64,000 bases of DNA. Source: Asterias amurensis. Its lineage: Eukaryota. Of the stretch, positions 198 through 53,000 are shown piece after piece (position 1 is the first letter of the stretch; every line of letters starts with the position of its first letter). Below the pieces are notes generated by a model. That model made no database searches. It saw only the letters and a list, made by a program, of their open reading frames with translations, and was not told where the DNA came from. The stretch spans positions 18,173,185 through 18,237,184 of the forward strand of contig NC_092661.1 of assembly GCF_032118995.1 (NCBI RefSeq). The letters are read 5' to 3'. The position numbers were made by a program, and so were the translations under genes.

Positions 198-586
198 TTA
201 AAGGGAGCGGACACAATTGGTAATTACTCAAAATAATTGTTAGCACAAAAACTTACTTGGTAACGAGCAATGTAGAGCTGCTGATAGCATAAAACATTGT
301 GAGAAACGGCTCCCTCAGAAGTAACGTGTTTCGAGAAAGAAATAATTTTCCACGAATTTGATTATGAGACCTCAGAATTCGATTTTGAGGTCCCGAAATC
401 AAGCATCTGAAAGCACACAATCTTGTATTACAAGGGTGTTTTTTTTTCTTCCAATTTTATCGCACATCTTCGACGACCAATTGAGCTCGAATGTTCACAT
501 GGTTTGTTATTTTGTGCATATGTTGAGATACACCAAGTGAGATTACTGGTCTTCAACAATTACCAAACGTGTCCAGTGCCTTTAAG
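198..586 (+). mobile_element. MITE family A (about 380-400 bp). Its terminal inverted repeats read CTTAAAGGCAsTGGACACnnTTGGTAATT.
   Basis: The two ends (TTAAAGGGAGCGGACACAATTGGTAATTAC and its reverse complement CAATTACCAAACGTGTCCAGTGCCTTTAAG) are inverted copies of each other. The same element occurs eight times in the window. Confidence 0.75.
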
Positions 587-989
587 TCAAGTGACACAAC
601 ACTAAATGTTTATTTGAAGAACAATTGTTTTCTAATTAACTTAAAATTATACTGATTTAGCTTCACTAATCACCCATGGTCCTAAAAGAGTATGTGAACC
701 ATTTTGATATAGGTCCTACTACATTAAAAGCAGCCTTTTCCTCAATTTAATAGGGTGAATGTGTGCCTGGTAAGTGGTAACAAGAGGCTAGTTTGAATCC
801 TAAACTTAAAAAAAGTTACAATTACATGTACAATGTACATAATTGTGTTTGATGAACACACTGCATAGCTTATAGTTTTAGGTAGGAGAGTGCCCTGGCA
901 ATTCAACGGCGCGCACAAGGGATTTTCTACCCCCTGGTAATCCAATGGTGTTACTGTTTGTTTACGATATGCAAAACTTTGTGCACCCT

Positions 990-1312
990 GGCCAATCACT
1001 TGTTCTCATTTTTCTGACGTCCTGCCCCTTTCGACAATACACCAATGTGATTGGCCAACACGAAATTGACAACAAAATGTAGCTTGAGGCTTGCCGGTCT
1101 TAGTCTGGTGCCAATAACCTCTCCCCTAATTTTCCATGCGTTATAACCATGAGAGTCGGGGCATCTGGTAGCAGGACATGTGCGTACGCGGCCTTTCTGA
1201 ATCTTCTGTACAACCACGAGTCGTGTCCAAATCTTCGTCAGAAATATCAAAAAGCATCATGCAAAATAATAAATGTACCTCAAAACTGACGAAACAACAA
1301 TGAAAGGTAAGT
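990..1312 (+). promoter_or_regulatory. Promoter-like cluster followed by a minimal first coding exon of an unidentified plus-strand gene. The cluster has three CCAAT motifs (one inverted), a CRE-like TGACGTC and a TATAA box. The exon reads ATG AAA G|gtaagt.
   Basis: A CCAAT sits at 992-996 (gccaatcac) and another at 1042-1046. An inverted CCAAT (gattgg) is at 1049-1054. TGACGTC is at 1014-1020 and TATAA at 1142-1146. ACAACAATGAAAG at 1294-1306 is followed immediately by the consensus donor gtaagt at 1307-1312. Confidence 0.3.
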
Positions 1313-2475
1313 TTTCATGCATCCATTTTGTGTAGAACTACAAATTAGTTCAGTCTGGAAAATGAGTTATCTACCAAAAGGGTGTTTTGAAATTGTCACC
1401 TTTTCCAAACGTCTGCCCATCATTGTCATATCATGGTAATTTATTCCTCCATGGTCATATCGTTTTCCAGTTTGTTAACGAAAAAAAAAACAAGTTTGGT
1501 ACTATAAGAAAGGTTATCTCAAACGTAATCTATTGTAGTAAAATCAATCATTTATTTTAAAAGGTTGCGGAAATATTATATTTTAATGTATTTTTGTACT
1601 TGGTTTTTGTCTGTCAGACCATTCTCAAAATCATATCAATTGTCAAACAAATGTCCCCATATGGACAGCTTCAATACACGTAAGTCCATAGTCTGCCAAA
1701 ATATCTGTCAGGACCCCCTCCTCTAAATCTTAAATGCGCAGCTATGAGCAGCTACCTAAGCAAAGAAATTGAGGTTTTTTGATGTAAATTTATGTGTAAA
1801 ACCTCAACTTTTTGTAACAAAATAAAATGAACGATATCAAAACAGTATAAAATATCAATCAATTTCTATCAACTTTGGAACCTATCAATTCCTCAGACCT
1901 TTCTCTACTCAAATATCAACATATCCCACGTGACCTTAGGCTATCAAGGCCACAAGAGGGCTCACTTAAAAAAAAAAAAAACATTTTCGACACAAAATCG
2001 ATTGAGTTTTCCCGCGACCAAAAATGGGCTCTCTGTTACGCGCTAATTTTCTTATTTTCAACTCTGTGTTTTTCGTTTAAAATTCCAATCAATCGAGAAA
2101 AAACTGCTTAATTGTGAAACTAAATGTCTTCAGCTAACCACAGATGATTTTGTACATCAAAATTCGCACTTAAATGATGTCATTTGCTTTGGGTGAATTT
2201 TCACAAGCACTTTTCGTGTACAAACAGATATAAATCACGATTGAAGCCTTTCCGTCGACCTCCCTACATCATATGCTGTTACACAAAAGTGCAAGTGTAA
2301 CTAATGCAATGTGTCGACCTAGCCATAGAGTAAGGACCAAAGGTCTTTGCTCTATGACCTAACCAACCGTAACGTACATGTACGCATTATTTATTTATGC
2401 CATTGAGTAGAAACCATAGTATAGTGCACAGCACCAAGTGAACGGTAATTTTTCTTGCAGCCCTTTTGTAACACT

Positions 2476-3372
2476 GATAAGCGATAGACGTAGACTTGAT
2501 TCAAGTCCCATTCTCGTGTGAGAGGTCCCTAAGCATATCATGGCAACTTACTATCAAACAAACCGTAGCATACAGTACAGTGCGCGCTCGCCAACAAATT
2601 GTGGTCACGAGAATGGGACTTAACGAGGTCGTTTCTTACTCTGCACGTCGTTATTGGAAAATCTCCCCACCCAAATGGGGAGATGTACAAAACCAATGGG
2701 AGCGTGGAAGCGCTGCCCAGCCGGTAAAATATTCATTATACTCTGTAAGGAAAAGTTTCCGTATGGCGCCACCACTTTTTCATTCAAAATAAAATAATAT
2801 AGTATCTAATTTACCTGATTGATATATCCCTTTTTGTAAAAATGAGTGAAAAAGTGGTGGCGCCATACGGAAAGTTATCCCTCTGCTACATCACAGTTAC
2901 AGTGCAAGACATTGTAAGGCACGCGTCTAGACGTGGGGCGGGCAAACTCATCAGCAGGCAGGGGGGTGTCGGTATTTATACATGTAAGTCGTTGAATTGC
3001 ACTTCCCAAAATTCAAATTAACCAAACCGACCCTAACGTATGTTACAACGTATCAACTTAAATTCAATGAACATTTAGTGCTTTCTTTTTTATAATTAAT
3101 TGGTTATTTAAAAATTTATTTCAATCGTCAACTAAGTACTTAACCCACAAAAATAACAAATGAAATAGTCTTCTTTTTGAGTTCGTTTGATTGGTCAACA
3201 CGTAACACGCATCTGCTACATATTCATATATGAATACATTTACATATCAGGCTACTGCGACATCGTCAAGTCCCTGTCCCGCGTGCGGAACAGGTTTGGG
3301 AATGCAGAGCATCACAAAGCAGTAGTTTTCTGGCGGTGGCACGGGATTGGGACTTGAGTCAAGTCTACGATA
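2476..3372. mobile_element. Element of about 900 bp bounded by terminal inverted repeats (CGATAGACGTAGACTTGATTCAAGTCCCATTC), with a hairpin MITE nested inside at 2750-2880.
   Basis: The left end GCGATAGACGTAGACTTGATTCAAGTCCCATTCTCG at 2476 matches the right end CGGGATTGGGACTTGAGTCAAGTCTACGATAGACGG at 3337-3372 in reverse complement. Confidence 0.6.
2750..2880. mobile_element. Hairpin MITE (AAAAGTTTCCGTATGGCGCCACCACTTTTTCA ... inverted)
   Basis: It is a near-perfect 130-bp palindrome. A second copy lies at 44740-44888. Confidence 0.75.
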
Positions 3373-6473: not shown

Positions 6474-6839
6474 ATAGTAATTGGGGTGGCTGACTAAACT
6501 CTTCCGAAATGGAGGCGCAATGACCTTGACGATCTCTGAGTATGTGATGGGGCTGGTGCTAAGACTAACCTTACCAGAATAAAATTAGGAAATTTATACA
6601 CACAATCAGGACAACACTAAACATTATTTTGTTCCTATGTTTCTTGTTTATTTAATGATCAGATTTACAGTTAATGTTGAAAAGAGTGGATGCAGAATAA
6701 ATCACAATTAATACAGATTAAATTAAACAGAACTTTGTTTATTTGTGTCCGAGTTTGTATTTGAAGTAATAGTACAAAATTACTAGTTAATAAAAAAATC
6801 CTTAATTTATGAAATAGATAAATGCCAAAATGTTTGCTC

Positions 6840-9060
6840 AAAAAGGCCCATTTTTAAATTTTGGGCCAAAAATAGAATGGTCCGAAATCACTCAAAAGGA
6901 AGAACAAGTTTAACCCCTTGCGGTTTTTTTCACTAAAAATTTTTGCTCAAAAAGGCCCATTTTTAAAATTTGACCCCAAACTAGAGTGGTCCAAAATCAC
7001 TCAAAAGAACAAGTTTAACCCCTTGCAGTTTTTTTCGCTCAAAATCTTGGCACAAAAAGGCCCATTTTTAAAATTTGGGCCAAAAATAGAATGGTCCGAA
7101 ATCACTCAAAAGAACAAGTTTAACCCCTTGCAGTTTTTTTCACTCAAAATCTTGGCTCAAAAAGGCCCTTTTTTAAAATTTGGGCCAAAAATAGAATGGT
7201 CCGAATCACTCGAAAGAACAAGTTAAACCCCTTGCAGTTTTTTTCACTCAAAATCTTGGCTCAAAAAGGCCCATTTTTAAAATTTGGGCCAAAAATAGAA
7301 TGGTCCGAAATCACTCGAAAGAACAAGTTTAACCCCTTGCAGTTTTTTTCGCTCAAAATCTTGGCTCAAAAAGGCCCGTTTTTAAAATTTGGCCCCAAAA
7401 ATAGAATGGTCCGAAATCACTCAAAAGAACAAGTTTAACCCCTTGCAGTTTTTTTCACTCAAAATCTTGGCTCAAAAAGGCCCATTTTTAAAATTTGGGC
7501 CAAAAATAGAATGGTCCCAAATCAGTCGAAAGAACAAGTTTAACCCCTTGCAGTTTTTTTCACTCAAAATCTTGGCTCAAAAAGGCCCATTTTTAAAATT
7601 TGACCCCAAACTAGAGTGGTCCGAAATCACTCAAAAGAACAAGTTTAACCCCTTGCAGTTTTTTTCACTCAAAATCTTGGCTCAAAAAGGCCCATTTTTA
7701 AAATTTGGGCCAAAAAAAAAATGGTCCGAAATCACTCGAAAGAACAAGTTTAACCCCTTGCAGTTTTTTTCGCTCAAAATCTTGGCTCAAAAAGGCCCAT
7801 TTTTAAAATTTGGCCCCAAAAATAGAATGGTCCGAAATCACTCAAAAGAACAAGTTTAACCCCTTGCAGTTTTTTTCACTCAAAATCTTCGCTCAAAAAG
7901 GCCCATTTTTAAAATTTGGGCCAAAAATAGAATGGTCCCAAATCAGTCGAAAGAACAAGTTTAACCCCTTGCAGTTTTTTTCGCACAAAATCTTGGCTCA
8001 AAAAGGCCCATTTTTAAAATTTGACCCCAAACTAGAGTGGTCCGAGAAATCACTCAAAAGAACAAGTTTAACCCCTTGCAGTTTTTTTCACTCAAAATCT
8101 TGGCACAAAAAGGCCCATTTTTAAAATTTGACCCCAAACTAGAGTGGTCCGAAATCACTCAAAAGAACAAGTTTAACCCCTTGCAGTTTTTTTCGCTCAA
8201 AATCTTGGCTCAAAAAGGCCCATTTTTAAAAATTTTGCCCCAAAAATAGAATGGTCCGAAATCACTCGAAAGAACAAGTTTAACCCCTTGCAGTTTTTTT
8301 CGCTCAAAATCTTGGCTCAAAAAGGCCCATTTTTAAAATTTGGGCCAAAAATAGAATGGTCCCAAATCACTCGAAAGAACAAGTTTAACCCCTTGCAGTT
8401 TTTTTCACTCAAAATCTTGGCACAAAAAGGCCCATTTTTAAAATTTGACCCCAAACTAGAGTGGTCCGAAATCACTCAAAAGAACAAGTTTAACCCCTTG
8501 CAGTTTTTTTCACTCAAAATCTTGGCTCAAAAAGGCCCATTTTTAAAATTGTGGCCAAAAATAGAATGGTCCGAAATCACTCAAAAGAACAAGTTTAACC
8601 CCTTGCAGTTTTTTTTGCACAAAATCTTGGCTCAAAAAAGCCCGTTTTTAAAATTTGGCCCCAAAAATAGAATGGTCCGAAATCACTCGAAAGAACAAGT
8701 TTAACCCCTTGCAGTTTTTTTCGCTCAAAATCTTGGCACAAAAAGGCCCATTTTTAAAATTTGACCCCAAACTAGAGTGGTCCGAAATCACTCAAAAGAA
8801 CAAGTTTAACCCCTTGCAGTTTTTTTTCACTCAAAATCTTGACTCAAAAAGGCCCATTTTTAAAATTTTGGCCAAAAATAGAATGGTCCGAAATCACTCA
8901 AAAGAACAAGTTTTGGCCCTTGCAGTTTTTTTCGCTCAAAATCTTGGCTCAAAAAGGCCCATTTTTAAAATGTGGCCCAAAAATAGAATGGTCCGAAATC
9001 ACTCAAAAGAACAAGTTTATCCCCTTGCAGTTTTTTTGCTCCAATTCTTGGCTCAAAAAG
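6840..9060. repeat. Satellite array with a 105-bp unit, in about 21 tandem copies. Two alternating unit subtypes are present (..TTTGGGCCAAAAATAGAATGG.. and ..TTTGACCCCAAACTAGAGTGG..).
   Basis: The motif AAAGGCCCATTTTTAAAATTTG recurs with a 105-bp period, for example at 6951 and 7056. Copies are near-identical. The 102-158 aa ORFs the track lists between 6918 and 9131 are periodic translations of this array. Confidence 0.9.
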
Positions 9061-9999
9061 GTCCAACTTTGGCAAAAAATATAACAGAACGGTTCAAAAA
9101 TGCTGAATCCAACAATACAAGTTATTGTTAACTAAAAGTTTTTGTAACCAAACATTTTAGCAAAATGTTTCCCCACAAACAGGTTTAGTATCACCTAAAT
9201 TCAATTAGCTTCAATTACTCCAAGACAAGTATTCCTTAGAAGCTGCATATGTGGTGCTTACCACTGTGTTGACAAGGCTGCGTTCTCTAGGATTGCTTTA
9301 CAGATTGATGTCCAGTTAATCAATGCTCAACATGGTTTCATGAGTGGGTTTCTGTAACAGCAGACAAAAATACAAGAAAAATGAATACCAGGTTAATTCT
9401 GATTCTGAATAATAACGTAATACATGTCACTCACAGCAAAACCCAATGTCATGTTCCTGCTTACCATGGGAGTACATGCTTACAGCCTGCTGTAAATGTG
9501 TCAATCTATGACCTGAACACACAAACAAGTACTGCTACAACTATCCCACAAACCAGAATAACAGAATCTGAAAGCACTTTAAATAATAACTGAAGCAGAT
9601 TCTAATTGAAAGACCCACTTTGGTCCCAAGGGTTCAATTCCTACTGTGTACAGTTTTAAGATTTCCTTTGAACATTCTAATGATTGATTGAAATTAAAAC
9701 CAAAGAACAAGAAAAATAGTTGGTGGTTGAGTGGAATGAAGCTCATGATTGTCGATATTATCCTGGGTTGTGGGGTCAACTCACATCATGTGTTATTTAT
9801 GCTGTATTGCCTAATGGTTAATTTTCTTACACCTGGGGTTCACACAGGCAGACGATATTAGCTAATAAAGAAGAGTTGGAGGTGCTGAGTATTAAAATAA
9901 ATTGTGACTGTGGCTCTTTGCTTTTCCGTTAATAATAATAATAACATCAAAGTCTCATATAGCACACGTATCTACCAAACAAGGTACTCGAGGCGCTGA

Positions 10000-11030
10000 G
10001 TATATACAAACTTTTTCTTTTTCATTGCCTGTGTCTATTCGAAGGATTTTAATAAATGAAGATGCAAGTTTCTTAAGAAGAGTTGGTGGTCCAGTGGAAG
10101 GACTCATTGACTCCAGATGCTATGGTCTTGGGTTCAATTCCCACTGTGTGATTTTACAAAGTAACTTTTTCTTTTTCATTGACTTTGTCCATTCTAAGGG
10201 TTTTAATAAACGTCAGATGCAAGTTTCTTAAGAAGAGTTGGTGGTCCAGTGGAAGGACTCATTGACTCCAGATGCTATGGTCTTGGGTTCAATTCCCACT
10301 GTGTGATTTTACCAAGTAACTTTTTCTTTTTCATTGACTTTGTCCATTCTAAGGGTTTTAATAAACGTCAGATGCAAGTTCTTAAGAAGAGTTGGTGGTC
10401 CAGTGGAAGGACTCATTGACTTTAGGCACTATGGTCCTGGGTTCATTTCCCCTTGTGTTTTCTTTTTCTTTTCAGTGCATGTGTCCATTCTAAGGGTTTT
10501 AATTAATGTCAGATGCAAGTTTCTTAAGAGGAGTTTGTGGTCCAGTGGAAGGACTCAGTGACTCCAGATGCTGTGGTCCTGGGTTCAATTCCCACTCTGT
10601 TCCTTTTCTTTTTCATTGCCTGTGTCCATTTTAAGGGTTTTAATTGATGTCAGATGAAAGTTACTTAAGAGGAGTTTGTGGTCCAGTGGAAGGACTCAGT
10701 GACTCTGGGCGCTATGGTCCTGGGTTCAATTCCCACTCTGTTCCTTTTCTTTTTCATTACCTGTGTCCATTCTAAGGGTTTTAATTAACGTCAGATGCAA
10801 GTTTCTTAAGAGGAGTTTGTGGTCCAGTGGAAGGACTCACTTACTCCAGATGCTGTGGTCCTGGGTTCGATTCCCACTCTGTTCCTTTTCTTTTTCATTG
10901 CCTGTGTCCATTCTAAGGGTTTTAATTAACGTCAGATGCAAGTTTCTTAAGAGGAGTTGGTGGTCCAGTGGAAGGACTCAGTGACTCCGGGCGCTATGGT
11001 CCTGGGTTCAATTCCCACAGTGTGTAACTC
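10000..11030. repeat. Satellite array with a unit of about 157 bp, in about 6.5 copies. Each unit carries a tRNA-like B-box/T-arm motif (GGTCCAGTGGAAGGACTCA ... GGGTTCAATTCCCAC).
   Basis: The direct repeat GTGGTCCAGTGGAAGGACTCATTGACTCCAGATGCTATGGTCTTGGGTTCAATTCCCACTGTGTG recurs at 10085, 10240, 10390, 10540, 10690, 10830 and 10960. Confidence 0.85.
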
Positions 11031-11394: not shown

Positions 11395-11995
11395 GGGTGA
11401 AAAGACTGCAGACTTTGGATGGGGACTAGGTAGTGTCTTCTATGGGGAAGTTTGTACTTGTTAAATTTCACTCATTCAGCTCAATAGTAAGTAATGGGAT
11501 AAGATGACTGGATATTGGATGGGGTTTGGGTAGTGTCTTCTAAGGGGAAGTTTGTACTTGGTAAATTTCACTCATTCAGCTCAATAGTAAGTAATGGGAT
11601 GAAGTGACTGGACATTGGATGAGGTTTGGGTAGTGTCTTCTAAGGGGAAGTTTGTACTTGGTAAATTTCACTCATTCAGCTCAATAGTAAGTAATGGGAT
11701 GAAGTGACTGGACATTGGATGAGGTTTGGGTAGTGTCTTCTAAGGGGAAGTTTGTACTTGGTAAATTTCACTCATTCAGCTCAATAGTAAGTAATGGGAT
11801 GAAGTGACTGGACATTGGATGGGGTTTGGGTAGTGTCTTCTAAGGGGAAGTTTGTACTTGGTAAATTTCACTCATTCAGTTCAATAGTAAGTAATGGGAT
11901 GAAGTGACTGGATATTGGATGGGGTTTTGGGTAGTGTCTTCTAAGGGGAAGTTTGTACTTGGATGTGGACTAGGTAGTGTTTTCTAAGGGTTAGG
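11395..11995. repeat. Satellite array with a 100-bp unit, in about 5.5 copies.
   Basis: GGGTTTGGGTAGTGTCTTCTAAGGGGAAGTTTGTACTTGGTAAATTTCACTCATTCAGCTCAATAGTAAGTAATGGGATGAAGTGACTGGACATTGGATG repeats with a 100-bp period (at 11521, 11621, 11721 and 11821). Confidence 0.85.
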
Positions 11996-12279: not shown

Positions 12280-12642
12280 CTTAAAGACACTGGACACCTT
12301 TCGTAATTGTCAAAGACCAGTCTTCCCACTTGGTGTATCTCAACATGCATAAAATAACAAACCTGAGCAAGTTTGAGCTCAATTGGTCGTCGAAGTTGCG
12401 AGATGATAATGAATGAAAAAAACGCCCTTGTCACACAGAGTTGTGTACTTTTAGATTGATTTCGAGGTCTCGAAATCAAATTTGTGGAAAAATACTTCTT
12501 TCTCAAAAATTCTGTTCCTTCAGAGGGAGCCATTTCTCACAATGTTTTATACTATCAACAGCTCTCCATTACTCGTTACCAAGTAAGGTTTTATGCTAAT
12601 AATTATAATGAGTAATTACCAATAGTGTCCAATGCCTTTAAG
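12280..12642 (-). mobile_element. MITE family A copy
   Basis: Same terminal inverted repeats and internal sequence (..GAGAAACGGCTCCCTC..GTGTGACAAGGG..) as the copy at 198-586. The ORF at 12222..12533 lies inside it. Confidence 0.75.
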
Positions 12643-16730: not shown

Positions 16731-18139
16731 TTCTTACATTTTCTCTCTCCCGCCTGTTAATGTCAATCCCCCTCATGAGATGAGGTGAAAAGGATTCTAC
16801 TGAATTATCAGGAAACATCTCGGTGACCATGGTGGCATGAAAAGCCAATATGTATCAGCTGTAAAATATAATAAAAAACAAGTCATTGTCATAAATTTAT
16901 TGAAAACAATTGAATGCCACCTGAAAAGGAAGAGAGACAGACATTGTTCACTCTTTAAAAAATACAACAGTTGTTTGACCAATTTTGAATTCACATTGTT
17001 TTTTATCGCAAGTCTCTTTGATATCTTAATTTTTTTTAAACATAAATTAGTAAGTCGCAAATTTTGAAGGGGAGAAGTTTTTAAAAGCGTTTTTCACCAG
17101 AAATTTCTTTTAAAAGTGATGATCAATAATCGCAAGCAAACTTTAGAAAATTTGATGAAGTTTGGCACCTTAATTGTGGTTTGTTGGTTTATTGGAACTT
17201 ATTCTGCATGAAATTAGCTTGAGAAGTAATTTATTTACGTGTGATCATGGAGGTAGAACTACCTCCATGGTGTGATTAACTTATTGCAAAGTTAAAGTGA
17301 TCCAGCTGGTAAATGATCCCGAACTGGCATGACTGGTCAAATGACATACCATTCAAAACAAAGTCAGTTTTGACTCCTGTTAATGTCTTAATGTCAAATA
17401 ACATGAGCCTAAAAGAACGTCTATTTCTGTAACTGTATAACGGTTGAGCCGGCAAAAAATGTCTAAAGTCTCGATTTTAGAAACTGAAAAAAGATGCCAA
17501 CAAACAATTTTAGTCAAACTTTAACTGCATGCCATCCACCGCTTAGCCCGCTGAAACCCATTTCCCTCACCCCGGCCATGCCGGTGGGCGGAGAAAATGA
17601 AACAAATTTGTTTTAAAAAAGGAGAACATTTTTGCCTCAAACTCCTATTACTATTAGAGAGCACTGTCGACATTGATTACGCCGTGCAACTAAATAGGCA
17701 TCTAAAGCTTAGGTGCATAGTGTAATTTTATCCAAATAAATTCAATCAATCAATAAATAGTAATACATCGTTTAACTTTCTGTACCCAGAGGCTAAGCCA
17801 AGAGGCTAGTTTGTTTATTTTGGAACAGCAGAGAGCAGAGAGTGTGACATTTTTGTCTAAACCAATCTTCCGTCTTCAGGGCGAATTATTGTTCAAAATG
17901 ACCAGGAATTGACAAAGAAAGAAGGTATTTTTACTCACCAATTAAAATAACTTCCGTTTTCCAACTTTGCGTCGATGAATTTGTGGATGTATTTTGATTT
18001 AGATAACTATACGACTTCAAAGAACCAAGATTTGTAAATGGCCGCCAGGCCCGCCCAGGCACCAGCCCAATCGACGGACAAGCCGCGCCGCCTCACGTGG
18101 TGGTGGTAGAACCCGACCTCGGAACCGGTTTAAGGCAGT

Positions 18140-18545
18140 GCACTGGCTACTCTAGGCCGGACTACACATGCGCACAGCCATCGGCTTCCAAAATAAGTGC
18201 GAAACTGAGAAAGTGTCGTCTGCTCGAGAGTTGTGTGTTTCGGAGAAAGTTATTAATATTATGACTTAGGCCTAGCCTACATCTCATAATTATGACGGCT
18301 TTGTATAAGTAATAATTATACATACATAGGCCTATCTCATAAATATGATATGTGTCACAAGTCACAAGTTATAATTGTGAGGTATATCAATAATCATGAG
18401 ATGTATAAGTCATAATACATGTAGTTTTCTTTGTCAATGTCCCTACTGCTTCCGAAACACAGACGACACCTTCTCACTTTAGCACTTACTTTAGAAAGGT
18501 AGTCCGACCCAACCCTAAATAGTAAAGCTAAGTCATAATTATGAC
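18140..18545. mobile_element. Foldback element directly downstream of a GC-rich CpG island
   Basis: The left arm at 18150-18260 (..CTTCCAAAATAAGTGCGAAACTGAGAAAGTGTCGTCTGCTCGAGAGTTGTGTGTTTCGGAGAAAG..) is an inverted copy of the right arm at 18440-18545 (..CTTCCGAAACACAGACGACACCTTCTCACTTTAGCACTTACTTTAGAAAGG..). Confidence 0.55.
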
Positions 18546-27600: not shown

Positions 27601-30600
27601 ACAAACAAACCATTGAATGAAAACTGTGTAGTTTTGTACTTATTTCTTTCTTTTGTTGCTTTTGTATTTCAAAGTGCTTTGTATAGAATTTGTAAAAAAC
27701 ACTTTATAAGTAAACTTATATGATTATTATATTGTGCATAATGATGGCCTTATTTTCGAACCAAACCAGATCTTCTTCAGAGGCATAAACAAGTACAAAA
27801 AAATACATATCCATTTATAGAAAAAAGAGGGGAAAAGGATTTAAAGGCAGTGGACACTATTGGTAATTACTCAAAATATCTATTAGCATAATACCTTTCT
27901 TGGTGACGAGTAATGGGGAGAGGTTGATGGTATAAAACATTGTGAGAAACGGCTCCCTCTGAAGTGCCATAGTTTTCGAGAAAGTAATTTTCCATGAATT
28001 TGATTTCGAGACCTCAGGTTTAGAACTTGAGGCCTCAAAATCAACCATCTAATCGCACACAACTTTGTGTGACAAGGGTGTTTTTTTTTCATTATTATCT
28101 CGCAAATTCAATGACCGATTGAGCTCAAATTTTCACAGGTTTGTTATTTTATGCATATGTTGAAATACACCAACTGTGAAGGCTAGTTTTTGACAATTAC
28201 CAATAGTGTCCACTGCCTTTAAGAGACGGATCCAGAAAAAAAGGGAAAATTATAGCCAATCAAAGTTTATATTTCAGAAACAATTGGTGGCTATGAACCA
28301 ATAGGAGTGGTGAGGACAAAGGATGTTCAGTATGTTCTATTATTATAATATGCAATATAAAATCTAACCTACATGTGAGCCAACATACCTTTAGCATATC
28401 CTCCCTGTCCGAGTCCCAAGAGTTTTACTCCAGTCTTTTCTAGAACAGCCAACCAATAACAATGACCTGCAAACTCCATCTTGATTGGCTCACCTTCAAC
28501 TGTTACTTCTAGGGCTCCACTTGCAACCTGAAATAACACAACCTCTTTTATTAAAATGAGCGTACTGAATGAGTCGTTGAAAGTTAAACGACGTGGTTAT
28601 GACTATGACTGACAGGCTATTTGTTTTCCCAATAAGCCATTTGCGAGTAAGATTTGAATAATGTCTGGTACATTGACTTGCTTAGTCGCAATGTATTGCT
28701 TACATTTGGATTCCTCAGACTATAGAGACAGTTGCTGTGTCAAATGGTTCGGCGCAAGCTTTTTGTATAGCAACCTCCAGATGAGCAAACCCTGGTGTAC
28801 CATTGAGCCATACACATCCATTCAAAATTGTGTGTGGGTGTAACACATGGGTGTAACTAAGCAAAAGTTTGCTCCTAATCATGTGTCATAGTAACTGTCT
28901 TGATAGTCTGAGGATAGGAATTGAAATTTAAGTGGTAACTTGTGATCAAGCACATCATTGTACCAGACAATATTAAAATCTTACACGCAAATAGCTTAAA
29001 GATATACGAGTTAACATAATTGATAATGTCTACTTGCATGCTAGTTCAAAGCAATGCAGATGAATCAATTGTAGAATATTATTTTTGCAACACATTAGAT
29101 CCTGTTGAAATGTTTTGTGATCTTTAGGCTGCTCTTAAATGAAAAGAGTAGAGCATTCATTTAAATGGAGTGTCCAAAGAAACACTCCTTTTGAAAAGAT
29201 CAATAATTTTAAGTAAAAATGGAGCATGATTTCATGAATATAAGATTCAGTGTTTCCTTGTTCACATTTTAAACTTTGCTTTTCCCTAATACTTTCAAAC
29301 ACTCTCTGTTTTATGATATTGTGTAGTTTCTTACCCGCCAAACTCTGATGGTGTTATCTTGGCAGAAAGTTGCCAAATACTTGCAATTCTTGGAGAATTG
29401 ACACAGGGCAACAGGAGCTGTATGGGTCAATGTCATGATCTCTGCCCCGTGACACTGCTCCTTGGACAAGTCTAACCAAGTAAACACTGGGGACAAATTG
29501 GGATAGATAACAAAATGAGAAAATAGAATTAGCTGCTGCAAACAACTTACCAACCAAGAGGACCGAAGGTATAAATGCAAAAATAGTGGAATGGCCTGAA
29601 GTTGACCCCTGCAGAGTCTTCTCCAGAGAAAGACTCTGCTAGGGTCAAAACAGTGTTCGAAACGTCAGGCCATTAACTATTTTTTGATTTGGACAACTTA
29701 CTGACAGTGAAGAGAATCTATTACTTTTGTATTGTAAATAAAAAGAAATAATAATAATTAAGGCGTAAATAAAAAGTAATAATAATAATAAAGATGTTTA
29801 ATGAGCACAAAACTAGGTGTTCAAGGCGCAGTAAAAAAAACAAAAAAACACACAAAAAAACTCACTGTTTTTTCCATGTACAGTCAGATAGTCCTTGGCA
29901 TATGCAGAGCAAGACGATGAATCAGGTTCGTTTAATGCTTGTTGACAAATCAGCTGTGGGTATTTCTGGATCATAGAAGCATTGGAACGTACCATGCGGT
30001 AAAAGTCCTTCAATTTACCGCCAAACTCACACTTATCAGCAGCCTGCAGAATACAGAAAGCAAATCTAGTTGTTTGAAACTTTTCTAAAACACTCAAAGA
30101 ATACCCATATACACCGCAACGTGTTAGTACTGTATACTAAGTACTTTCCTGAGCTCTGTGAAAATAACCACAGGCATATTACTCAGGTGGCATATTACTC
30201 ACAGGTATATTATTTATCCCTGATGCAACATTCCATCTACTTAATTGTTTCTTTTATGGGTAATGTTAGCACAAGAAAATGTTAAACTATTAAAAGTTTA
30301 CAACTTTGAGAAGCATGAATTGTAACATGGAGAAAACTGTTGAGTACTGTTTTAAAATATAGGCATAGATGTAAATCAATGAATGTCGATGGAATACGCT
30401 CCAGAAGGCAAGCATATTTTAACAATAATACTCCCAAACTATTAAATTAAAAAAAGCGAATAAAGAAATCACAAACATTCTGTACTGCTACAGGAACCAA
30501 GCAATATAATTTTGCATAAATAGCAGACACAGGTTTTGTCTATCATTTGTTGGACATAAGGAAGCTGCAAAATTAACCCATCTGCATAAGCTGTATTGAC

Positions 30601-33600
30601 TCATTTCACCTGACGTCATCATCAGAATAATCTGTGATGCGGCATACTGGTCACTGTGCGTTATTCAGTGAAGTGCGCATTTTAGGCGATGCTGCGTTTA
30701 CACGTAAACGCATTGCCAACCAAAATGGTGAGCGTGGCACAGTCGCCGCGTGTGACATGCGTGCAAGAGGTCAATATGGAAAGTACTTACCTCAGCCAAC
30801 TCTAGAAGAAGTTTATAAATACGTCCAGTCCTGCACTTAGCCTCCAGCCATGGTATTGAACACATTTCCTGTAGTATGAGTTAGACAGCATAAGGGACAA
30901 TATTTAAAAAACAATATTCCTCCATGAAAACTCAAGCACCCCTTGCTGAAACCTGCAGGTGATGAAGATCTAGTCAGCTGTAGACATTGTGGCCTTGACT
31001 ATTCAACAAGAAAACAGTTTGAAAGAAACAACAACAGCTACTAAAACTGCCACATCATTGTACAGGGTATAAATAAGTTAATACTGTAAATAAAAGACCA
31101 TTTAAGTTTTAAGTTTTATAAAGCAAAATAAAGAAGAAAAACCCCAAACGATAGCCACTAAAAGACAAGTCATACTTTGCATCATTGTACATGATTTAAT
31201 TCATTTAAATCCTTTATACAAATAGAAAATTAAGACTTGTCTTTTGGTTTACACTTGTATTGTAATATCACTTCATTAAATGCGTTAAAAATAACCCTTT
31301 CCTTTTTAAATCATGCATCTAAATAAAAAATAGAACAAACAGGACAACATCAGAGAGATTTCTCACCCTATCTGCATCTTCCCACAAATTTCCACGGATG
31401 ATGTGGCGTGGTAGCTCAGTTAGTTTCCTAAGGTTCCAGTGTATCTTCTTAGGAGACTTTGAGGTCTTGAGACTATCAATGTCTGCCACAGAGTTATGAC
31501 GTGTTGCTGATCCTGAACTTATCACCAAGGGTTGAGACTGAACACCACGATGGGTCACTGCCATGTTACCTGAACCTTTCTCCCGGTAGGGCTTTGGGGT
31601 ATCAGCCCACCTGTAAGAAGTAAAGACCACTTATTAAGAGACTGAACACCACGGTGGGTCACTGCCATGTTACCTGAACCTTTCTCCCGGTAGGGCTTTG
31701 GGGTATTAGCCCACCTGTAAGAAGTAACAATATTTATTAGCCCTGCATGTCAAAACAGTCATGATGATTTGCAGTCATTAATAACTGCCACAGTTGCGGT
31801 GCAAACCCCATAGTTGTTTTTTTGAAGGACTAGTCTGTTCATCTGCTTTGATTAGGCCATGTTTGAATGGGTAGCCAAGGCTACTATATAAGTTGGTTGT
31901 GTGGTTGCCCAGGTTGTACACTCCCAAGGAAGCTGAGAATGATTAAAGGAATGTTATTGGCCCAATGGCACTAATGTAAAGCGCATGGAAATGGTTATTT
32001 TGAAATACACTATAAGAACTTGTTATTATTATTACGTTATGATACGTTGAAGTATAGGATGTCCTTTGCAACAGTCGTAGCCATAGCCAAAGCTGCCAAT
32101 TTGGATACGGCTTGAGATCGAAAGACAAAGGATGATAAAGGTTTCTTTAGTTGTCGCTAAATGCCTACCTTCCAAGGAAGTACATAGCAAGAGCTTGGTG
32201 TAATAGTGCTGCTGAATCACTCAGATATAGCTGCCGAGCTTTCTCATAGAAGAGTCTGTGATACCAACGGTAGACCACAACATTATCCACACCTCCTTCC
32301 ACTAAGTAGTCACCTTTAGACGGGAAATACAAGAACAATCCTTAAAGACACTGAACACTATTTATTGGTAATTACTCAAAATGATTGTTAACATCTTTAC
32401 TTGGTAACGAGCAACCGAGAGCTGTTGATAGCATAAAACATTGTGAGGAACGGCTCCCTCTGAAGTTTTGGACCTTAAAGTTCTGGAACAAAGAATTCTG
32501 GGTCCGAAAGCCCAGATTGAACTGGTTATAAAAGAATTTTGAAAAGCACTATTTCTGATAATGCGATTCAAGTTAAAGCAAAATTTCATGAAGCAAGTCA
32601 AATAGATCATTTAACTCACCTAAGTCTAGTCGCAGTCTAGTCCACAGCAGAGGAGGCAATCGTCTGATTGGTGGGATATGAAACTCAAAGACGTCATCCA
32701 GGACTACGTCATCACATGACAGCACGTCAATCAGTTCATTGGCTGACAGCCCTGTGGCAGATGCAGTAAGGTAGCCCAAAGCATGGCGTACAAATATCTC
32801 ACCGTGCTTCACCTCTAGCCTGTGGAAAATAAAACAAGCAATGATGGTGAAATCATCTTCACATAGAAGTAACAACTTACATTGTATAATGGTAAAAGAA
32901 GAAAAAACTATCAACCTCTCGTTGAGCATGTTCGATGGACATTTGTAACTGTCAAAATGCAATTTTATGGTAATTTTTTAAAGAAAACAACCTAAAACAG
33001 GGATATTGAACAGTTTACTTTTGCTTTATCACTTACAAACAAAAGCAGGTTTTTATAGGGTGGTCGCAAAACATTGATAATTCTTTAGAACAACAAAACC
33101 AAAAAAAAAGACATACTCGTTGAAAAGCTGTTCAATAAGTCCTGGTGTGCTATCAGCAAGTTTGCATTCTTTCAGCGGTGTGTACGACTTCCACTTCTTT
33201 GCAATGTCACAAGCCAAACGCATGAAGAGGGGTGTTGGAGTTTCGTCATGGTGGGCATGCAGCACAATTTGCTTCTGGTCCGGGGTTAGACTCCTGCCTG
33301 ATTTACTTAACATTAAATCAATGATATTATGCTGGTCTTGCTCATCAAGTCTCACAATCTCAAAGTAGGAATCCTCATTCTACAGATTAGACAGAAGCAA
33401 ACATAACAAAGGAACAGCATTACTAGGCAATCTAGGGCATTGGATTCAAGTTCTGCAGCCAATTTTACGTAACGCTAGGATTAATCGAGTAACCCGTCCT
33501 AACTTAGGATGGGTTCAATGGATACGGAACTTAACTTGTCCCAAGTCCTAAGATTAATCCCAAGTTAGGAAGCGTTTGGTGAAATCGACGGCTGGTGCTG

Positions 33601-41747: not shown

Positions 41748-42369
41748 CTAAAATAATAAAATGTATCCACAAAAATAAAAAATTTGAGGGGGAGTAGTTA
41801 CTCAGGTTACATTTTTCTTTCAAGATGTTTTCGCTCCAATGTTGAACACAAAATTGAAGCAGTTATTATTCCAGCTGGTAAAAACAAAAGGGCAAAAGGT
41901 AAAAGATACGAGTAAACTTCATACAAATTTTCACAAATCAGGACATCTAGTGTGCATTAGTTGGGGGCCAAAAGGACAGAAGACGCCAAATACAAAATTT
42001 TGCCAACTGGTAAATTTCTCAAGTTGCAAAGAGAAATGCTTACAAATAAATAATAATATTAATCCAAGCGCAGTCATTTCTTCCTAATGAGTAATGCTGT
42101 GCAAAAATTATTAAGTACATTGTACGATCAAACAATTGTATGACGGCGTTTGTAGTGAAACCAATATAAGAAGGGTGGGGGGGGGGGGGGGTTGTTTTTT
42201 GTCCCTTCATATTTATGAGACAAAAAACCCAAAACAAGAGGTGTTCCGAGCCTTAACACCTAAAATAAGAAAATACCAGAATCAAAATGAGAATAAAGTT
42301 TATGTTAAACCTGATTTAAGATGTGAACAAACACTACAAAAGGTTCATTTCATTTGTCGTATAGACCTT

Positions 42370-42530
42370 AAATGCACATGACGTCATTTCAGTAGGGCGC
42401 CCTCACCTAGAGGTCAAAAGTAGGTTGTTCATTGGCCAATTAGTGTGCGCCGCGCGTACAAATGTGTGCGTTTCCGATTGTTTCGTCACCGTTTTTCCAC
42501 TAAGATGGCCGCTGGATGACGTCAATACAT
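42370..42530 (-). promoter_or_regulatory. Putative core promoter and 5-prime noncoding exon of the NWD-like gene. It carries two perfect CRE palindromes (TGACGTCA), a palindromic double CCAAT box (ATTGGCCAAT) and a CpG-rich stretch (GCGCCGCGCG). A GT donor follows on the minus strand.
   Basis: TGACGTCA occurs at 42379-42386 and at 42517-42524. ATTGGCCAAT is at 42441-42450. Reading the minus strand, CCTCTAG|gtgagg places a donor at 42406/42405, which pairs with the acceptor ttattttag|ACACCAAAATGG at 41749/41748. This would give a noncoding exon 1 of roughly 42407-42440. Confidence 0.4.
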
Positions 42531-42983
42531 AAGGTCTATTGGTTTAGTGATTCAGTACACAACAAAGTTGTACGATTTTATCAGACTCAAAGTCAACACA
42601 CAGTGAGCTGAACAACACAAAACCACGATACTTGTCCAGTTGCGAATTTACTGAATCAATGGTAAAAACACTGGCATGAGCATGTGGTCCAGTGTTAAGC
42701 CCTGAGTGTTCAACCAAGTTCTAGAAGTTGTTCCTACCTAAAAATTGTCATCGCAGCAGTTTAACTTGCCGTTACTGGTCTTTAAAAGTATTGTATATGT
42801 AGCATTTGAACCTTGAACCTAAAGGATCGCATATCAGACCATGGAGCTATTTTATAGCTCCATGATCAGACCTGCAACTGCCTCTAAACAACCTTTTAAG
42901 TAATGCCCAGACTACTGCAGTGTTGTTATATTTATTTAGTCTGGTACTTGAGTGAGATCAAACAAGAATCATGTACTCAGAAG

Positions 42984-43345
42984 CTTAAAGGGAAGGTACA
43001 CGTTTGGTTATTACTCAAAACAAATATTAACTTTTAAACCGACTTGATAAAAACATTGTGAGAAACGGCTCCCTCAGAACACCTCCATGCTCTGAAGTAG
43101 CGTAGATTTTGAGAGAGGTAATTTCTCACTAAAATATTAAAAGACTTCCAGCCAGAAGTCTTTTATTCCTATCTGAAAGCACACAAATTCGTTCAACAAG
43201 GGGTCATTTCTTGCATCATTTTCTCGCAACTTCGGTGACCAATTGAGTTCAAATTTTTACAGGCTTGTTATTTCATGCTTGTTGGGATACACCAAGTGAG
43301 AAGACTGGTCTTTGACAATTACCAAACATGTTCAGTGCCTTTAAT
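42984..43345 (+). mobile_element. MITE family A copy
   Basis: It runs from CTTAAAGGGAAGGTACACGTTTGGTTATTACTC to CAATTACCAAACATGTTCAGTGCCTTTAA. Confidence 0.75.
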
Positions 43346-49879: not shown

Positions 49880-50028
49880 TCAGCCTTGAGCACAGTTTGG
49901 GCATACGATGTCCTGGCCATCCATGACAAAGCACTCGTTGACCAGCGACACTTGGCACTTCTGGCATTGGAAGCAGCTGTTGTGCCAGTTACGATCTTCA
50001 AAGCAGACGTAGGTCGTGCTTCCTTGGC
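49880..50028 (-). CDS. FHL terminal exon 5 (coding part). The stop TGA is at 49882-49880.
   Basis: The acceptor is tgttccttttcttcag. The translation is GQGSTTYVCFEDRNWHNSCFQCQKCQVSLVNECFVMDGQDIVCPNCAQG followed by a stop. Confidence 0.8.
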
Positions 50029-53000
50029 CTGAAGAAAAGGAACATTAACTTTTCTTAGTTATTGTTACGCAATGTCCCCTCGACACTCAATACAGAATTT
50101 ATTCCTACTTCAGACAATAAGCAAAGAAGTCCGACCCCAGAGGCACAATTGACAAAACAACTGAGTTTAAATCTCTCATTAGAGGGCCACCAGCAGGAGT
50201 AGGAGAGGCATGCAAGTCAAAAATAGAACGCGTGGGAAAAATTTTCACAATTTGTTCTTCACTATGATTCTGCGTCTATTCAAGTTTATCTCTCCCAAAA
50301 ATCAAGTCATTTCAAAACAAATCCGTGAATTGTGTTTTCGCAACCACCACACTTCACCAATGGCATTAAAAGATTCACAAATTTAATTTCCTTCTATGGC
50401 CAAATAAATATTTGTGGGCATCTTGTTATAACTTCTTCATATTCTATGCCACTTATATAAAAGGGAATCATGGCACACAGATCGTATCGCATAATCTGAT
50501 TGGTGCCCACTGTTGCCCAGTCGCGTTTAGGAAATGAGACACTCGACTCAGTATGAAAGTCAGAAATACATACAGCCTTCTTGATTATAAGCACAGGAAA
50601 GCTTGCTCATTGTTAACGATTCAACAGCAACTATAAAACTCCATTTCATCACATACATCGGGGGATGCAGAGGAGGAAGGGATGATAGCAAGAAATACCA
50701 TAATCACAGAGACTCTCAAATTGTAGGGTGAAATCGAAGACCTTTACTTTTACCATCAGTTAGGTCAAAGAGCACACACAGTTTTAGTGCTAGGGAAAAC
50801 TCTGAAAGGTGTCATTAAGTTTAATTTATGACTAATTTTTGGTTTGACATTTCATAAAACTGTCATTGAGTAGGTCACCTTAAGGCATCTTAGTAGGTCA
50901 TCTTAAACCTCAAAACCTACTTGTTCAGTCAGTCCCGTCACTAATCCGTTGTTGTTTTGTTTTTCTTGTTTCTTTGCATTGTTCTTCTTTATTGTTCAGC
51001 ACTTTTGATCTTTGATAAAGGCGCTATATAAGACATCCCTCCCCTTTTTTGAGGGGGGGGGGGGGGTTCATGCCCCTGTATCTGCCTCCAAATACAGAAA
51101 AGAGTTTTACAGTTAAAGTTAGCTTCACGACAGCAGTTATTGCTGTGAGGTAAGACAACAGTGGAACAGTGATTAAGTACAATTCACAGTGTGTCAACTT
51201 GACCATTCAGAATAGAGAACTTCTTCAATACAAAGACACAAGGCAGGCATGGTGTAGAGGTGCATCCATAGAGCGTTAAAGACACTGGACACTATTGGTA
51301 ATTGTCAAAGACAAGTCTTCTCACTTGGTGTATCTCAACATAAGCATAAAATAACAAGCCTGTGAAAATTTGGGCTCAATTGGTCATCAAAGTTGCGAGA
51401 AAATTATGAAAGAAAAAACACCCTCATAAGACAAATTTGTGTGCTTTCAGATAGGAATAAAAGATTTCCAGCAAGAAGTCTTTTAATATTTTAGTGATAA
51501 ATTACCTCTTTTCAAAAACTACGTTACTTCAGAGGGAGTCGTTTCCCACAATGTTTTATACTATCAACAGCTCTCCAATGTTCATTACCAAGTCAGTTTT
51601 TAAGCTAATATTTGTTTTGAGTAATTACCAAAGGTGTACCTTCCCTTTAAAACCACATTCAAAATACACTAGATTGTGATCGGTATGCTTGACAAACAAT
51701 GTTTGGCTCCAAGAAAACATACACAATTTACAATCTTCCCGTCTTGTATGCAAATGCACTCTGTGCCCAAAGAGCAAAGTATAGTTTTGAACTTGTGTTT
51801 AACTGAGGGCAGTTTTGGGGGGTTTCTATGAATTGACACTGTGAATCAGTGGAAATACAATGCTGATTTCGTTTAAGTCCCAACACCCTCCCACTGAAAA
51901 GAAAACAAGAGTTAAAACTTTAAGGAAAACATGCCTTAATTTTCTTGATGACTAAAGTACAATGTGTGGTCCAAATAATATTCACTAGTGCATAAGCTTC
52001 ACAGTGTGGCTACAATACTAAATGCATTTATTTGTTTGGATTAACTAGTGACTAATGAAGTTAAAACTCAATGATGATGTGGTGAAAACAGTGACAAGGT
52101 TGTTTAACAACTACGACATAAAATATACAACATGGTGTAACTATAACCACTACTAATGGTGTTGATGCATGCAGAGCTGGGGTTAGACCATCACTGCACG
52201 ATAAACAAAGCCATTCCATTTTAATCCTTAAGCCCAGTGAGATGTTCATACAATTTGATTATGGATCTCTTAAAAGTATCATACTCATCAAACTGAAGGT
52301 AATCTTTTTCTGAAGCATTAACAAAGCAACATGAGCGTTTAGTTTTTAGGCAAAGTTGATCAGACTCAAACTGCTGTTCTGATATGTTACTCAGTTACAA
52401 CATTTTTTACCTTTTATTTCTCACTGCATTTTCCCACAACAAAACATAAATTTACAAATGTTATTTGAGTAATGTTTTTTTTTAAAGGGCTGGATTAAAA
52501 GGGTTTGAAGCATTTACTGAGCTGACCAAACAAAACAGAGGAGATTATCTATTAGAATACAATGGCTTGTTGTGCATTTGTGGCATAAAAATGACAGTCC
52601 TTCTTACCAGTATTGGCGCCAGGGGGAGTCGGCCCGCCAACTGAAGAAAAATTGGGAAAATTTTAGGTTGGACATGCAACATGCACATACAACAAGACTC
52701 GATGAATGAATGAATGAATGAATGAACTGCCAGAATGTAGCAAAGTTGCACTTTTTCACAGAACTTAAAGGTTGTCTCCCATCTAGCTTTTGTTTTTTAA
52801 GGTTATGTCATGGCGGGAAACTAAGCAAACCGTGATAATAAATTTAAACCCAAGTCATCATCTTGTCCTTTAAGATGGAAGACAACCTAACAAAGATCTT
52901 TATCAGAGATGTCTCAAAGAAGTGATTATTATTACTCAGACACAAAAGTGTAAACCAAAAATCCAGGATATAAGATTTGATAATACTAGAGAGAACAGAT

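What the first reader, a model, noticed from the sequence alone, without database searches (positions are those of the whole stretch)
990..1312. Plus-strand promoter-like module (CCAAT x3, TGACGTC, TATAA) feeding a minimal ATG-AAA-G|gtaagt first exon of an unidentified gene
Three CCAAT motifs in mixed orientation and one CRE-like site lie within 65 bp at 992-1054. A TATAA follows at 1142. About 150 bp further on, ACAACAATGAAAG is followed directly by a perfect gtaagt donor (1307-1312). Many animal genes have this kind of short Met-Lys first coding exon. The remaining exons could not be identified in the repeat-rich 1.3-20 kb region.
Basis: inference. Interest (0 to 1): 0.5.

Follow-up and report, generated by a model that had tools for sequence, protein, structure and literature searches.

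The report
Possible promoter and short first exon
A 320-base stretch has the sequence signs of an ordinary animal gene promoter followed by a textbook splice site, in a combination rarer than chance, but no gene could be attached to it and the proposed two-codon coding start is not supported.

Summary
The two best CCAAT boxes are the same perfect NF-Y decamer (GGCCAATCAC) in opposite orientations (990-999, 1047-1056).

The CCAAT cluster alone is not beyond chance (P=0.95 for 3 in 65 bp somewhere in 64 kb), and TATAA is common. The combination of cluster, CRE-like 7-mer and a correctly oriented consensus splice donor within 500 bp never occurred in 902 simulated windows.

Other support:
- The stretch is single copy in the window.
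- It sits in a small patch that has kept its CpGs (o/e 0.86, against 0.3-0.5 around it).
- It uses the same motifs as the putative promoter of the neighbouring NWD1-like gene.

The "ATG-AAA-G coding exon" is not supported:
- Three or four ATGs lie upstream of ATG 1300, including a 41-codon ORF that ends on it.
- No reading-frame-preserving exon chain exceeds 79 junk-like codons.
- Pfam and PDB searches found no coding exon on either strand between 0.6 and 20.6 kb.

Best reading (about 0.4): an ordinary NF-Y/CRE-type RNA polymerase II promoter with a short, probably non-coding, first exon. Chance or transposon-derived sequence (about 0.33) is not excluded. Interest is low.

The parts
901..1320 (.). 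Small patch that has kept its CpGs and contains the whole module
   Evidence: 17 CpG, CpG o/e 0.86, GC 44%. The left flank 587-900 has no CpG at all, and most of the window is at o/e 0.3-0.5.
942..946 (+). CCAAT with weak flanks
   Evidence: Does not fit RRCCAATSR.
990..999 (+). GGCCAATCAC, a perfect NF-Y-type CCAAT box
   Evidence: Matches RRCCAATSR. One of 15 such sites in the window.
1015..1021 (.). TGACGTC, a CRE-like site (7 of 8 bases of TGACGTCA)
   Evidence: Only 7 distinct 7-of-8 or full CRE sites occur in the window; two full ones lie in the putative promoter of the NWD1-like gene.
1042..1046 (+). CCAAT with weak flanks
1047..1056 (-). GTGATTGGCC, the same perfect NF-Y decamer inverted; TGATTGGCCAA (1048-1058) is Y-box-like
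   Evidence: The Y-box consensus CTGATTGGCCAA is quoted in PMC11532169.
1111..1115 (+). CCAAT with weak flanks, about 60 bp upstream of the start site predicted from the TATAA
1142..1146 (+). TATAA (context TATAACCA), a weak TATA-like element
   Evidence: TATAA occurs 120 times on this strand, so it adds no evidence.
1178..1303 (+). Upstream ORF of 41 codons (ATG 1178, in-frame ATG 1259) whose stop TGA 1301-1303 overlaps ATG 1300
   Evidence: Frame translation. Argues against ATG 1300 being the start codon.
1268..1273 (+). AATAAA hexamer inside the putative first exon
   Evidence: Read directly from the sequence.
1273..1306 (+). End of the putative first exon: in-frame ATG 1273 (MYLKTDETTMK-G) and ATG 1300 (MK-G)
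   Evidence: No coding continuation was found.
1304..1312 (+). Consensus U2-type 5' splice site AAG|GTAAGT
   Evidence: The only MAG|GTAAGT on the + strand. Scores 7.6 bits, fifth best of 3612 GT on this strand.
1618..1679 (+). Speculative second exon: acceptor ttggtttttgtctgtcag|AC, 62 nt open in the required phase, donor CAC|GTAAGT
   Evidence: Acceptor ranks 16th of 1090. The continuation is not protein-like. Weak.

Best explanation
The stretch at about 940-1312 is an ordinary RNA polymerase II promoter of the CCAAT-box (NF-Y) plus CRE type. It lies in a small unmethylated (CpG-retaining) patch of an otherwise CpG-depleted animal genome.

Transcription would start on the + strand somewhere around 1110-1190 and produce a short first exon spliced at the consensus donor 1306|1307. 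That exon is most likely non-coding: either a 5'UTR exon or the first exon of a lineage-specific or non-coding transcript. ATG-AAA-G is then incidental.

Shown: the motifs, their joint rarity, single-copy status within the window, CpG retention, and the strength and orientation of the donor.

Inferred: transcription, start site, use of the donor, and the non-coding nature of the exon.
For: - Two identical perfect NF-Y decamers lie in opposite orientation 57 bp apart, with a CRE-like 7-mer between them.
- The composite of CCAAT cluster, CRE 7-mer and an oriented consensus donor within 500 bp occurred in 0 of 902 simulated windows. Cluster plus CRE alone had P=0.0055.
- The donor AAG|GTAAGT is the only one of its kind on the + strand. 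It is by far the best donor downstream of the module, and the minus strand offers none within 1-1300 except inside a SINE.
- CpG o/e is 0.86 in 901-1320, against 0.0 in 587-900 and 0.3-0.5 elsewhere.
- There is no second copy of 850-1400 in the window. Nothing from 597-2480 appears in 13 related metagenome contigs that share many of the window's other repeats.
- The putative promoter of the neighbouring NWD1-like gene (42.37-42.56 kb, minus strand) has CCAAT, GGCCAAT and two TGACGTCA, followed by what looks like a short non-coding first exon with donor TAG|GTGAGG.
- Evidence that the exon is non-coding: upstream ATGs at 1149, 1178, 1259 and 1273 and no coding continuation.
Against: - The CCAAT cluster alone is expected by chance (P=0.95).
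- TATAA is frequent, and here it is a poor TATA box (TATAACCA).
- The composite test was defined after the fact.
- Consensus donors do arise by chance here. The other two + strand MAG|GTRAGT sites (57975, 60501) lie antisense within or beside a minus-strand LIM gene.
- CpG-rich patches in this window are not always promoters. 2490-3367 is an element with terminal inverted repeats, and 56977-57379 is a foldback.
- No downstream exon, poly(A) site or orthologous sequence could be tied to the module.
- The perfect CCAAT boxes would lie at about -120 and -180 from a TATA-predicted start, further than the usual -60 to -100 (general knowledge).
- No expression data are available.
Confidence: 0.4

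Rival explanations
1. Non-functional sequence. The motifs and the donor are a chance co-occurrence, or the remnant of a low-copy transposable element that carried its own promoter-like signals. The stretch would lie in an intergenic desert or in the long first intron of a minus-strand gene that starts at the 17.8-18.4 kb CpG island.
For: - Each element alone is unremarkable.
- About one consensus donor per strand is expected by chance, and two others on this strand are evidently non-functional.
- Other CpG-rich patches here are transposable elements.
- 1-20.6 kb has no recognisable coding exon on either strand.
- The 18-kb island has CCAAT, ETS-like, E-box and GC-box motifs and a minus-facing donor at 17938. 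The finding could therefore lie antisense in that transcript's intron.
Against: - The joint occurrence was never seen in 902 simulations.
- No second copy exists in the window or in about 25 kb of related metagenome contigs that carry many of the window's repeats.
- CpG retention begins sharply at 901.
- No terminal repeats or direct-repeat partner were found for 600-2480.
Confidence: 0.33
2. The module is a real regulatory element, but not for the proposed exon. It could be a bidirectional or minus-strand promoter whose gene lies left of the window start. It could also be an enhancer or alternative promoter serving a transcript defined elsewhere, for example the 18-kb island transcript.
For: - The two perfect NF-Y sites are in opposite orientations, and CCAAT boxes are typical of bidirectional promoters (general knowledge).
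- Only about 900 bp of sequence exists to the left, so a minus-strand gene cannot be excluded.
- CpG retention.
Against: - The only minus-strand donor candidate in 1-1300 lies inside a SINE.
- No coding ORF was found on the minus strand at 600-1300.
- The best splice signal by far points rightwards.
Confidence: 0.15
3. One reading: a protein-coding gene whose first coding exon is just ATG-AAA-G (or ATG 1273, MYLKTDETTMK-G), spliced in phase 1 to coding exons hidden in 1.3-20 kb.
For: - A at -3 before ATG 1300, and a perfect donor 7 nt later.
- A phase-compatible candidate second exon at 1618-1679 with a GTAAGT donor.
- Short first coding exons are common in animal genes (general knowledge).
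Against: - A 41-codon upstream ORF (1178-1303, with an in-frame ATG at 1259) overlaps ATG 1300, and a further ATG lies at 1149.
- Enumeration of frame-preserving exon chains gave at most 79 codons, all repeat-derived or not protein-like.
- No Pfam family and no PDB homologue was found in any + strand ORF of 30 aa or more between 1311 and 20600, while a spiked-in WD40 exon was recovered.
- Codon-usage scoring found nothing outside CpG-rich or transposon patches.
Confidence: 0.08

Closest known systems
NF-Y-dependent CCAAT-box promoters, including the Y-box (CTGATTGGCCAA) of MHC class II promoters
   Same: Two sites fit the full NF-Y consensus RRCCAATSR. One is 11 of 12 bases of the Y-box. Several CCAAT boxes lie close together upstream of a putative start site.
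   Different: Spacing between the perfect sites is 57 bp, and they lie about -120 and -180 from the TATA-predicted start, rather than the usual -60 to -100. Neither binding nor a start site is shown.
CRE/ATF-site promoters (TGACGTCA)
   Same: TGACGTC lies between the CCAAT boxes. Full CREs flank the putative promoter of the neighbouring NWD1-like gene in the same window.
   Different: Only 7 of 8 bases of the palindrome match (TGACGTCC).
Putative promoter and non-coding first exon of the NWD1-like gene in this window (42.37-42.56 kb, minus strand)
   Same: The same motifs (CCAAT, GGCCAAT, CRE) within about 180 bp, moderate CpG retention, and a short first exon ending at a good donor.
   Different: That module sits in front of a recognisable gene (DUF4062, HTH_NWD1, WD40). 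The finding has no identifiable downstream gene.
Retroelement LTR promoters (CCAAT, TATA, AATAAA, downstream splice donor)
   Same: The same order of signals: CCAAT, TATAA, AATAAA (1268), donor (1307).
   Different: There is no second LTR copy in the window and no terminal repeats. Only about 17 nt separate the expected poly(A) site from the donor, which leaves no room for U5 and a primer-binding site.

Membership tests
NF-Y / CCAAT-box Pol II promoter | CCAAT pentamer with NF-Y flanks (RRCCAATSR) | tested here: met
   Sites at 990-998 (+) and 1048-1056 (-), among 15 such sites in the window.
NF-Y / CCAAT-box Pol II promoter | CCAAT box positioned about -60 to -100 from a mapped transcription start | not testable with these tools
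   No start-site data. Relative to a TATA-predicted start near 1172, the perfect boxes are at about -120 and -180. Only the weak CCAAT at 1111 is near -60.
NF-Y / CCAAT-box Pol II promoter | Motif cluster denser than chance | tested here: not met
   Three in 65 bp has P=0.95 and five in 175 bp has P=0.28 per 64-kb window. Only the composite with CRE and donor is rare.
TATA-box core promoter | TATAWAWR consensus 25-35 bp upstream of the start site | tested here: inconclusive
   The sequence is TATAACCA, which mismatches at positions 6-7. TATAA occurs 120 times on the + strand. The start site is unknown.
CRE (cAMP response element) | Palindromic TGACGTCA, or at least the half-site TGACG | tested here: inconclusive
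   TGACGTCC has the half-site but only 7 of 8 bases of the palindrome.
CpG-island-type promoter | Local CpG o/e well above the genome background over at least 200 bp | tested here: met
   901-1320 has o/e 0.86 and GC 44%, against 0.50 for the whole window. Caveat: two other CpG-rich patches in the window are transposable elements.
U2-type GT-AG intron, 5' splice site | Match to MAG|GTRAGT | tested here: met
   AAG|GTAAGT at 1304-1312, unique on the + strand.
U2-type GT-AG intron, 5' splice site | A partner acceptor and downstream exon; junction reads | tested here: inconclusive
   A candidate acceptor exists at 1617|1618, among others, but none leads to a credible exon chain. Junction reads cannot be tested.
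Protein-coding first exon | The start codon is the first usable AUG, and the reading frame continues into downstream coding exons with protein-like or homologous sequence | tested here: not met
   Upstream ATGs at 1149, 1178, 1259 and 1273. The longest chain is 79 codons of junk-like sequence. No Pfam or PDB hit.
Dispersed repeat / transposable element | Additional copies elsewhere | tested here: not met
   No copy in the window or in 13 related metagenome contigs. An exact 21-mer scan of JGI metagenomes found none. Genome-wide copy number cannot be tested here.

The most novel reading that the evidence does not exclude
The module drives a lineage-specific spliced transcript whose only product is the 41-codon ORF at 1178-1303 (MCVRGLSESSVQPRVVSKSSSEISKSIMQNNKCTSKLTKQQ), a micropeptide. 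Its stop codon overlaps ATG 1300 in an ATGA arrangement three bases before the splice donor. Alternatively, the transcript is a non-coding RNA running convergent to a transcript from the 18-kb CpG island.
Probability: 0.08. Interest if true: 0.3.

Novelty: new member of a known kind. Interest (0 to 1): 0.15.

Why it matters
If real, this is one more unannotated promoter and first exon in a marine animal genome. That would help annotation of this locus: it would mark the 5' end of a transcript in a 20-kb stretch that otherwise looks empty. It would not change any concept.

The more general lesson is methodological. CCAAT/TATA motif clusters are not evidence on their own in AT-rich genomes. In this genome, retained CpGs mark young transposable elements as well as likely promoters.

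Tried and rejected
- **Large protein database, concatenated ORFs of 600-20900, + and - strands.** No hits, but the negatives are unreliable. One included ORF (2481-2789) has hits down to 1e-17 when searched alone.
- **Finding the species or an orthologous locus.** The best match to NWD1 exon 1 is only 79% identical. Cluster look-up gave no names. An exact look-up of the ORF at 996-1250(-) found nothing on record. A related 10-kb contig (L001) aligns only in NWD1 exons, and its 1.9 kb upstream lacks the promoter motifs.
- **Exact 21-mer from the module in JGI metagenomes.** No hit. A SINE control found only 9 contigs, so coverage of this lineage is too low for the negative to say much.
- **Rfam and tRNA scan.** Nothing was found in the module.
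- **Codon-usage scoring trained on NWD1 exons.** It mostly tracks GC content, and nothing convincing appeared in 1.3-17 kb.
- **Broad CpG island at 0.9-3.7 kb extending into intron 1.** Rejected: 2490-3367 is a transposable element with terminal inverted repeats and copies elsewhere.
- **Plus-strand exons beyond the NWD1 gene.** Rejected: 49.9-58.8 kb holds a minus-strand FHL-like LIM gene.
- **LTR hypothesis.** No second copy was found, and the geometry does not fit.

Full report
**Context.** The window is AT-rich (36% GC) and strongly CpG-depleted (CpG o/e 0.50), so it comes from an animal genome.

It carries two recognisable genes, both on the minus strand:
- An NWD1-like gene with DUF4062, an NWD1-type winged helix and WD40 repeats, at about 20.9-42.5 kb.
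- A four-and-a-half-LIM (FHL-like) gene with exons at 58.8, 56.4, 55.4, 54.5 and 50.0 kb.

The species is not in the protein collection. The best match to NWD1 exon 1 is 79% identical. Copies of its SINE and other repeats occur in marine metagenome contigs.

**Observation.**
- CCAAT also occurs at 942 and 1111.
- The two best boxes are the same decamer, GGCCAATCAC, at 990-999 and inverted at 1047-1056. Both fit the NF-Y consensus RRCCAATSR.
- The inverted box is 11 of 12 bases of the classical Y-box CTGATTGGCCAA (PMC11532169).
- ATGs lie at 1149, 1178, 1259 and 1273, and an AATAAA at 1268-1273.

**Statistics.**
- The CCAAT cluster alone means nothing. Three CCAAT/ATTGG within 65 bp occur somewhere in 95% of Markov-1 simulated windows, and five within 175 bp in 28%.
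- TATAA occurs 120 times on the strand, and here it reads TATAACCA, a poor TATA box.
- The donor AAG|GTAAGT is the only MAG|GTAAGT on the + strand. About one MAG|GTRAGT per strand is expected by chance.
- The other two + strand MAG|GTRAGT sites (57975, 60501) lie antisense within or beside the LIM gene, so chance sites do occur.
- The combination is rare (902 simulated windows):

| Combination | Result |
|---|---|
| CCAAT cluster + CRE 7-mer | P = 0.0055 |
| CCAAT cluster + oriented consensus donor within 500 bp | P = 0.045 |
| All three | 0 of 902 |

The composite was defined after the fact. I treat it as moderate evidence, not strong evidence.

**Independent support.**
- 850-1400 is single copy in the window.
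- Nothing from 597-2480 appears in 13 related metagenome contigs (about 25 kb) that share many of the window's other repeats.
- CpG retention switches on sharply. 587-900 has no CpG, while 901-1320 has 17 (o/e 0.86). Most of the window is at 0.3-0.5.
- To the left of the module, the minus strand has no usable donor.
- The region just upstream of the NWD1-like gene (42.37-42.56 kb, minus strand) has CCAAT, GGCCAAT, two full TGACGTCA and a YY1-like GCCATCTT. These are followed by what looks like a short non-coding first exon ending at TAG|GTGAGG. The motifs in the finding are therefore the ones seen at a likely real promoter in this genome.

**Caveats on that support.** I first read 0.9-3.7 kb as one broad CpG island. 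This is wrong.
- 2490-3367 is an element with 30-nt terminal inverted repeats.
- It has homologous copies in metagenome scaffolds, including a short form that joins 2491-2606 directly to 3284-3367.
- The CpG-rich patch at 57 kb is a 400-bp foldback.

CpG-rich patches here can therefore be young transposable elements. Only the 420-bp patch around the module counts in its favour.

**Is the exon coding?**
- A start site placed by the TATAA (about 1172) or by the CCAAT boxes (about 1110-1190) puts ATG 1178 and ATG 1259 in the leader. Both are in one frame, a 41-codon ORF that stops at TGA 1301-1303 and overlaps ATG 1300. The in-frame ATG 1273 also lies in the leader.
- Without splicing, ATG 1300 gives only MKGKFSCIHFV*.
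- I enumerated all frame-preserving exon chains from ATG 1300. The limits were acceptor at least 1.3 bits, donor at least 2.5 bits, introns 70-6000 nt and up to six further exons. The search gave 74 chains. The longest has 79 codons, and all are built from repeat copies or sequence that is not protein-like.
- The nearest coherent piece is a 62-nt exon at 1618-1679, with a good acceptor, the correct phase and a CAC|GTAAGT donor. Its continuation is not convincing.
- No + strand ORF of 30 aa or more between 1311 and 20600 matches Pfam or any PDB sequence. A WD40 exon spiked into the same concatenated query was recovered.
- The minus strand is equally empty.
- The two big-database searches with concatenated ORFs also found nothing. 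I discount them because they missed an ORF that has hits at 1e-17 when searched alone.

**Interpretation.** Estimated probabilities, by inference:

| Reading | Probability |
|---|---|
| Ordinary NF-Y/CRE-type Pol II promoter in a small unmethylated patch; short first exon spliced at 1306\|1307; exon non-coding (5'UTR exon, or first exon of a lineage-specific or non-coding transcript) | about 0.4 |
| Chance co-occurrence, or remnant of a low-copy transposable element, possibly antisense in the first intron of a minus-strand transcript from the 17.8-18.4 kb CpG island | about 0.33 |
| Real regulatory element serving another transcript or the other strand | about 0.15 |

The 17.8-18.4 kb island has CCAAT, ETS-like, E-box and GC-box motifs and a minus-facing donor at 17938.

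**Comparison with known systems.** The closest known things are:
- CCAAT/Y-box promoters bound by NF-Y.
- CRE-containing promoters.
- The putative promoter of the neighbouring NWD1-like gene in this window.

Membership in the class of active promoters needs a mapped start site and transcripts, which these tools cannot supply. An LTR reading fits the order of signals (CCAAT, TATA, AATAAA, donor). It fails on copy number and on geometry.

**Verdict.** Nothing here departs from textbook promoter architecture, so interest is low. RNA-seq or CAGE mapping, a genome-wide copy count, and alignment to the related species would settle it.

Noticed in passing
window 20900-42560, minus strand: NWD1-like gene with DUF4062, an NWD1-type winged helix and WD40 repeats. 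Coding exon 1 is at 41200-41748. The putative promoter at 42370-42560 has CCAAT, GGCCAAT, two TGACGTCA and a YY1-like GCCATCTT. A likely non-coding first exon ends at donor 42406. Exons are 76-91% identical at the DNA level to a related ENA contig (L001), while introns do not align.
   Followed up: partly
window 49950-58820, minus strand: Four-and-a-half-LIM (FHL-like) gene. Five LIM-domain exons lie at about 58.8, 56.4, 55.4, 54.5 and 50.0 kb (Pfam LIM and LIM_FHL2-3_N). The CpG-rich patch at 63.0-63.8 kb (o/e 1.05) may be its promoter.
   Followed up: partly
window 17800-18400: Second CpG-retaining patch (o/e 0.95, GC up to 51%). It has CCAAT (17862, 17937, 18067), three CTTCCG (ETS-like on the minus strand), CACGTG and a GC box. 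A minus-facing donor TTG|GTGAGT lies at 17938. It may be a TATA-less promoter of an unidentified minus-strand transcript running towards the finding.
   Followed up: partly
window 2489-3369: Transposable element with 30-nt terminal inverted repeats (2489-2518 / 3340-3369, 90% complementary) and internal copies of the same motif. Related copies, including a short form joining 2491-2606 to 3284-3367, occur in ENA SOLA marine metagenome scaffolds (L002-L005). It is CpG-rich and looks like part of a CpG island.
   Followed up: yes
window 2749-2880: Near-perfect hairpin inside that element: 38-nt arms, 92% complementary, 56-nt loop. RNA fold is -66.7 kcal/mol with z = -13.3. It gives only sub-threshold matches to plant miRNA families in Rfam, so it is a generic long hairpin.
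   Followed up: partly
window 198-586 (also 12280-12641, 27841-28223, 51276-51650, 55595-55971, and partial copies at 32342-32466 and 43050-43344): SINE-like repeat of about 390 bp with at least five full copies in the window (78-80% identical). Copies of 80-93% identity occur in ENA and JGI marine metagenome contigs (L002, L006-L014).
   Followed up: partly
window 6826-9065, 10013-11018, 11411-11962: Three tandem arrays. The first has a 105-bp unit in 21 copies (92% matches), open in one frame over stretches up to 158 codons but with frame breaks between stretches, so it is probably a satellite and not coding. The others have units of 141/423 bp and 100 bp (5.5 copies, 96% matches).
   Followed up: no
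window 56977-57379: A 400-bp foldback palindrome made of nested inverted repeats with its centre at 57189/57190. It is CpG-rich (o/e 0.99). It looks like a CpG island but is a repeat structure.
   Followed up: partly
window 3187-3202 versus 1047-1062: TTGATTGGTCAACACG at 3187 closely resembles GTGATTGGCCAACACG in the finding: an inverted CCAAT followed by CAACACG. The second copy lies inside the transposable element. Significance is unknown.
   Followed up: no
method (versus 50): Concatenating many ORFs with X spacers into one long query for the search for homologous proteins gave a false negative. An ORF with hits down to 1e-17 when searched alone was missed. The same trick worked with phmmer against PDB, where a spiked-in control was recovered.
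   Followed up: yes
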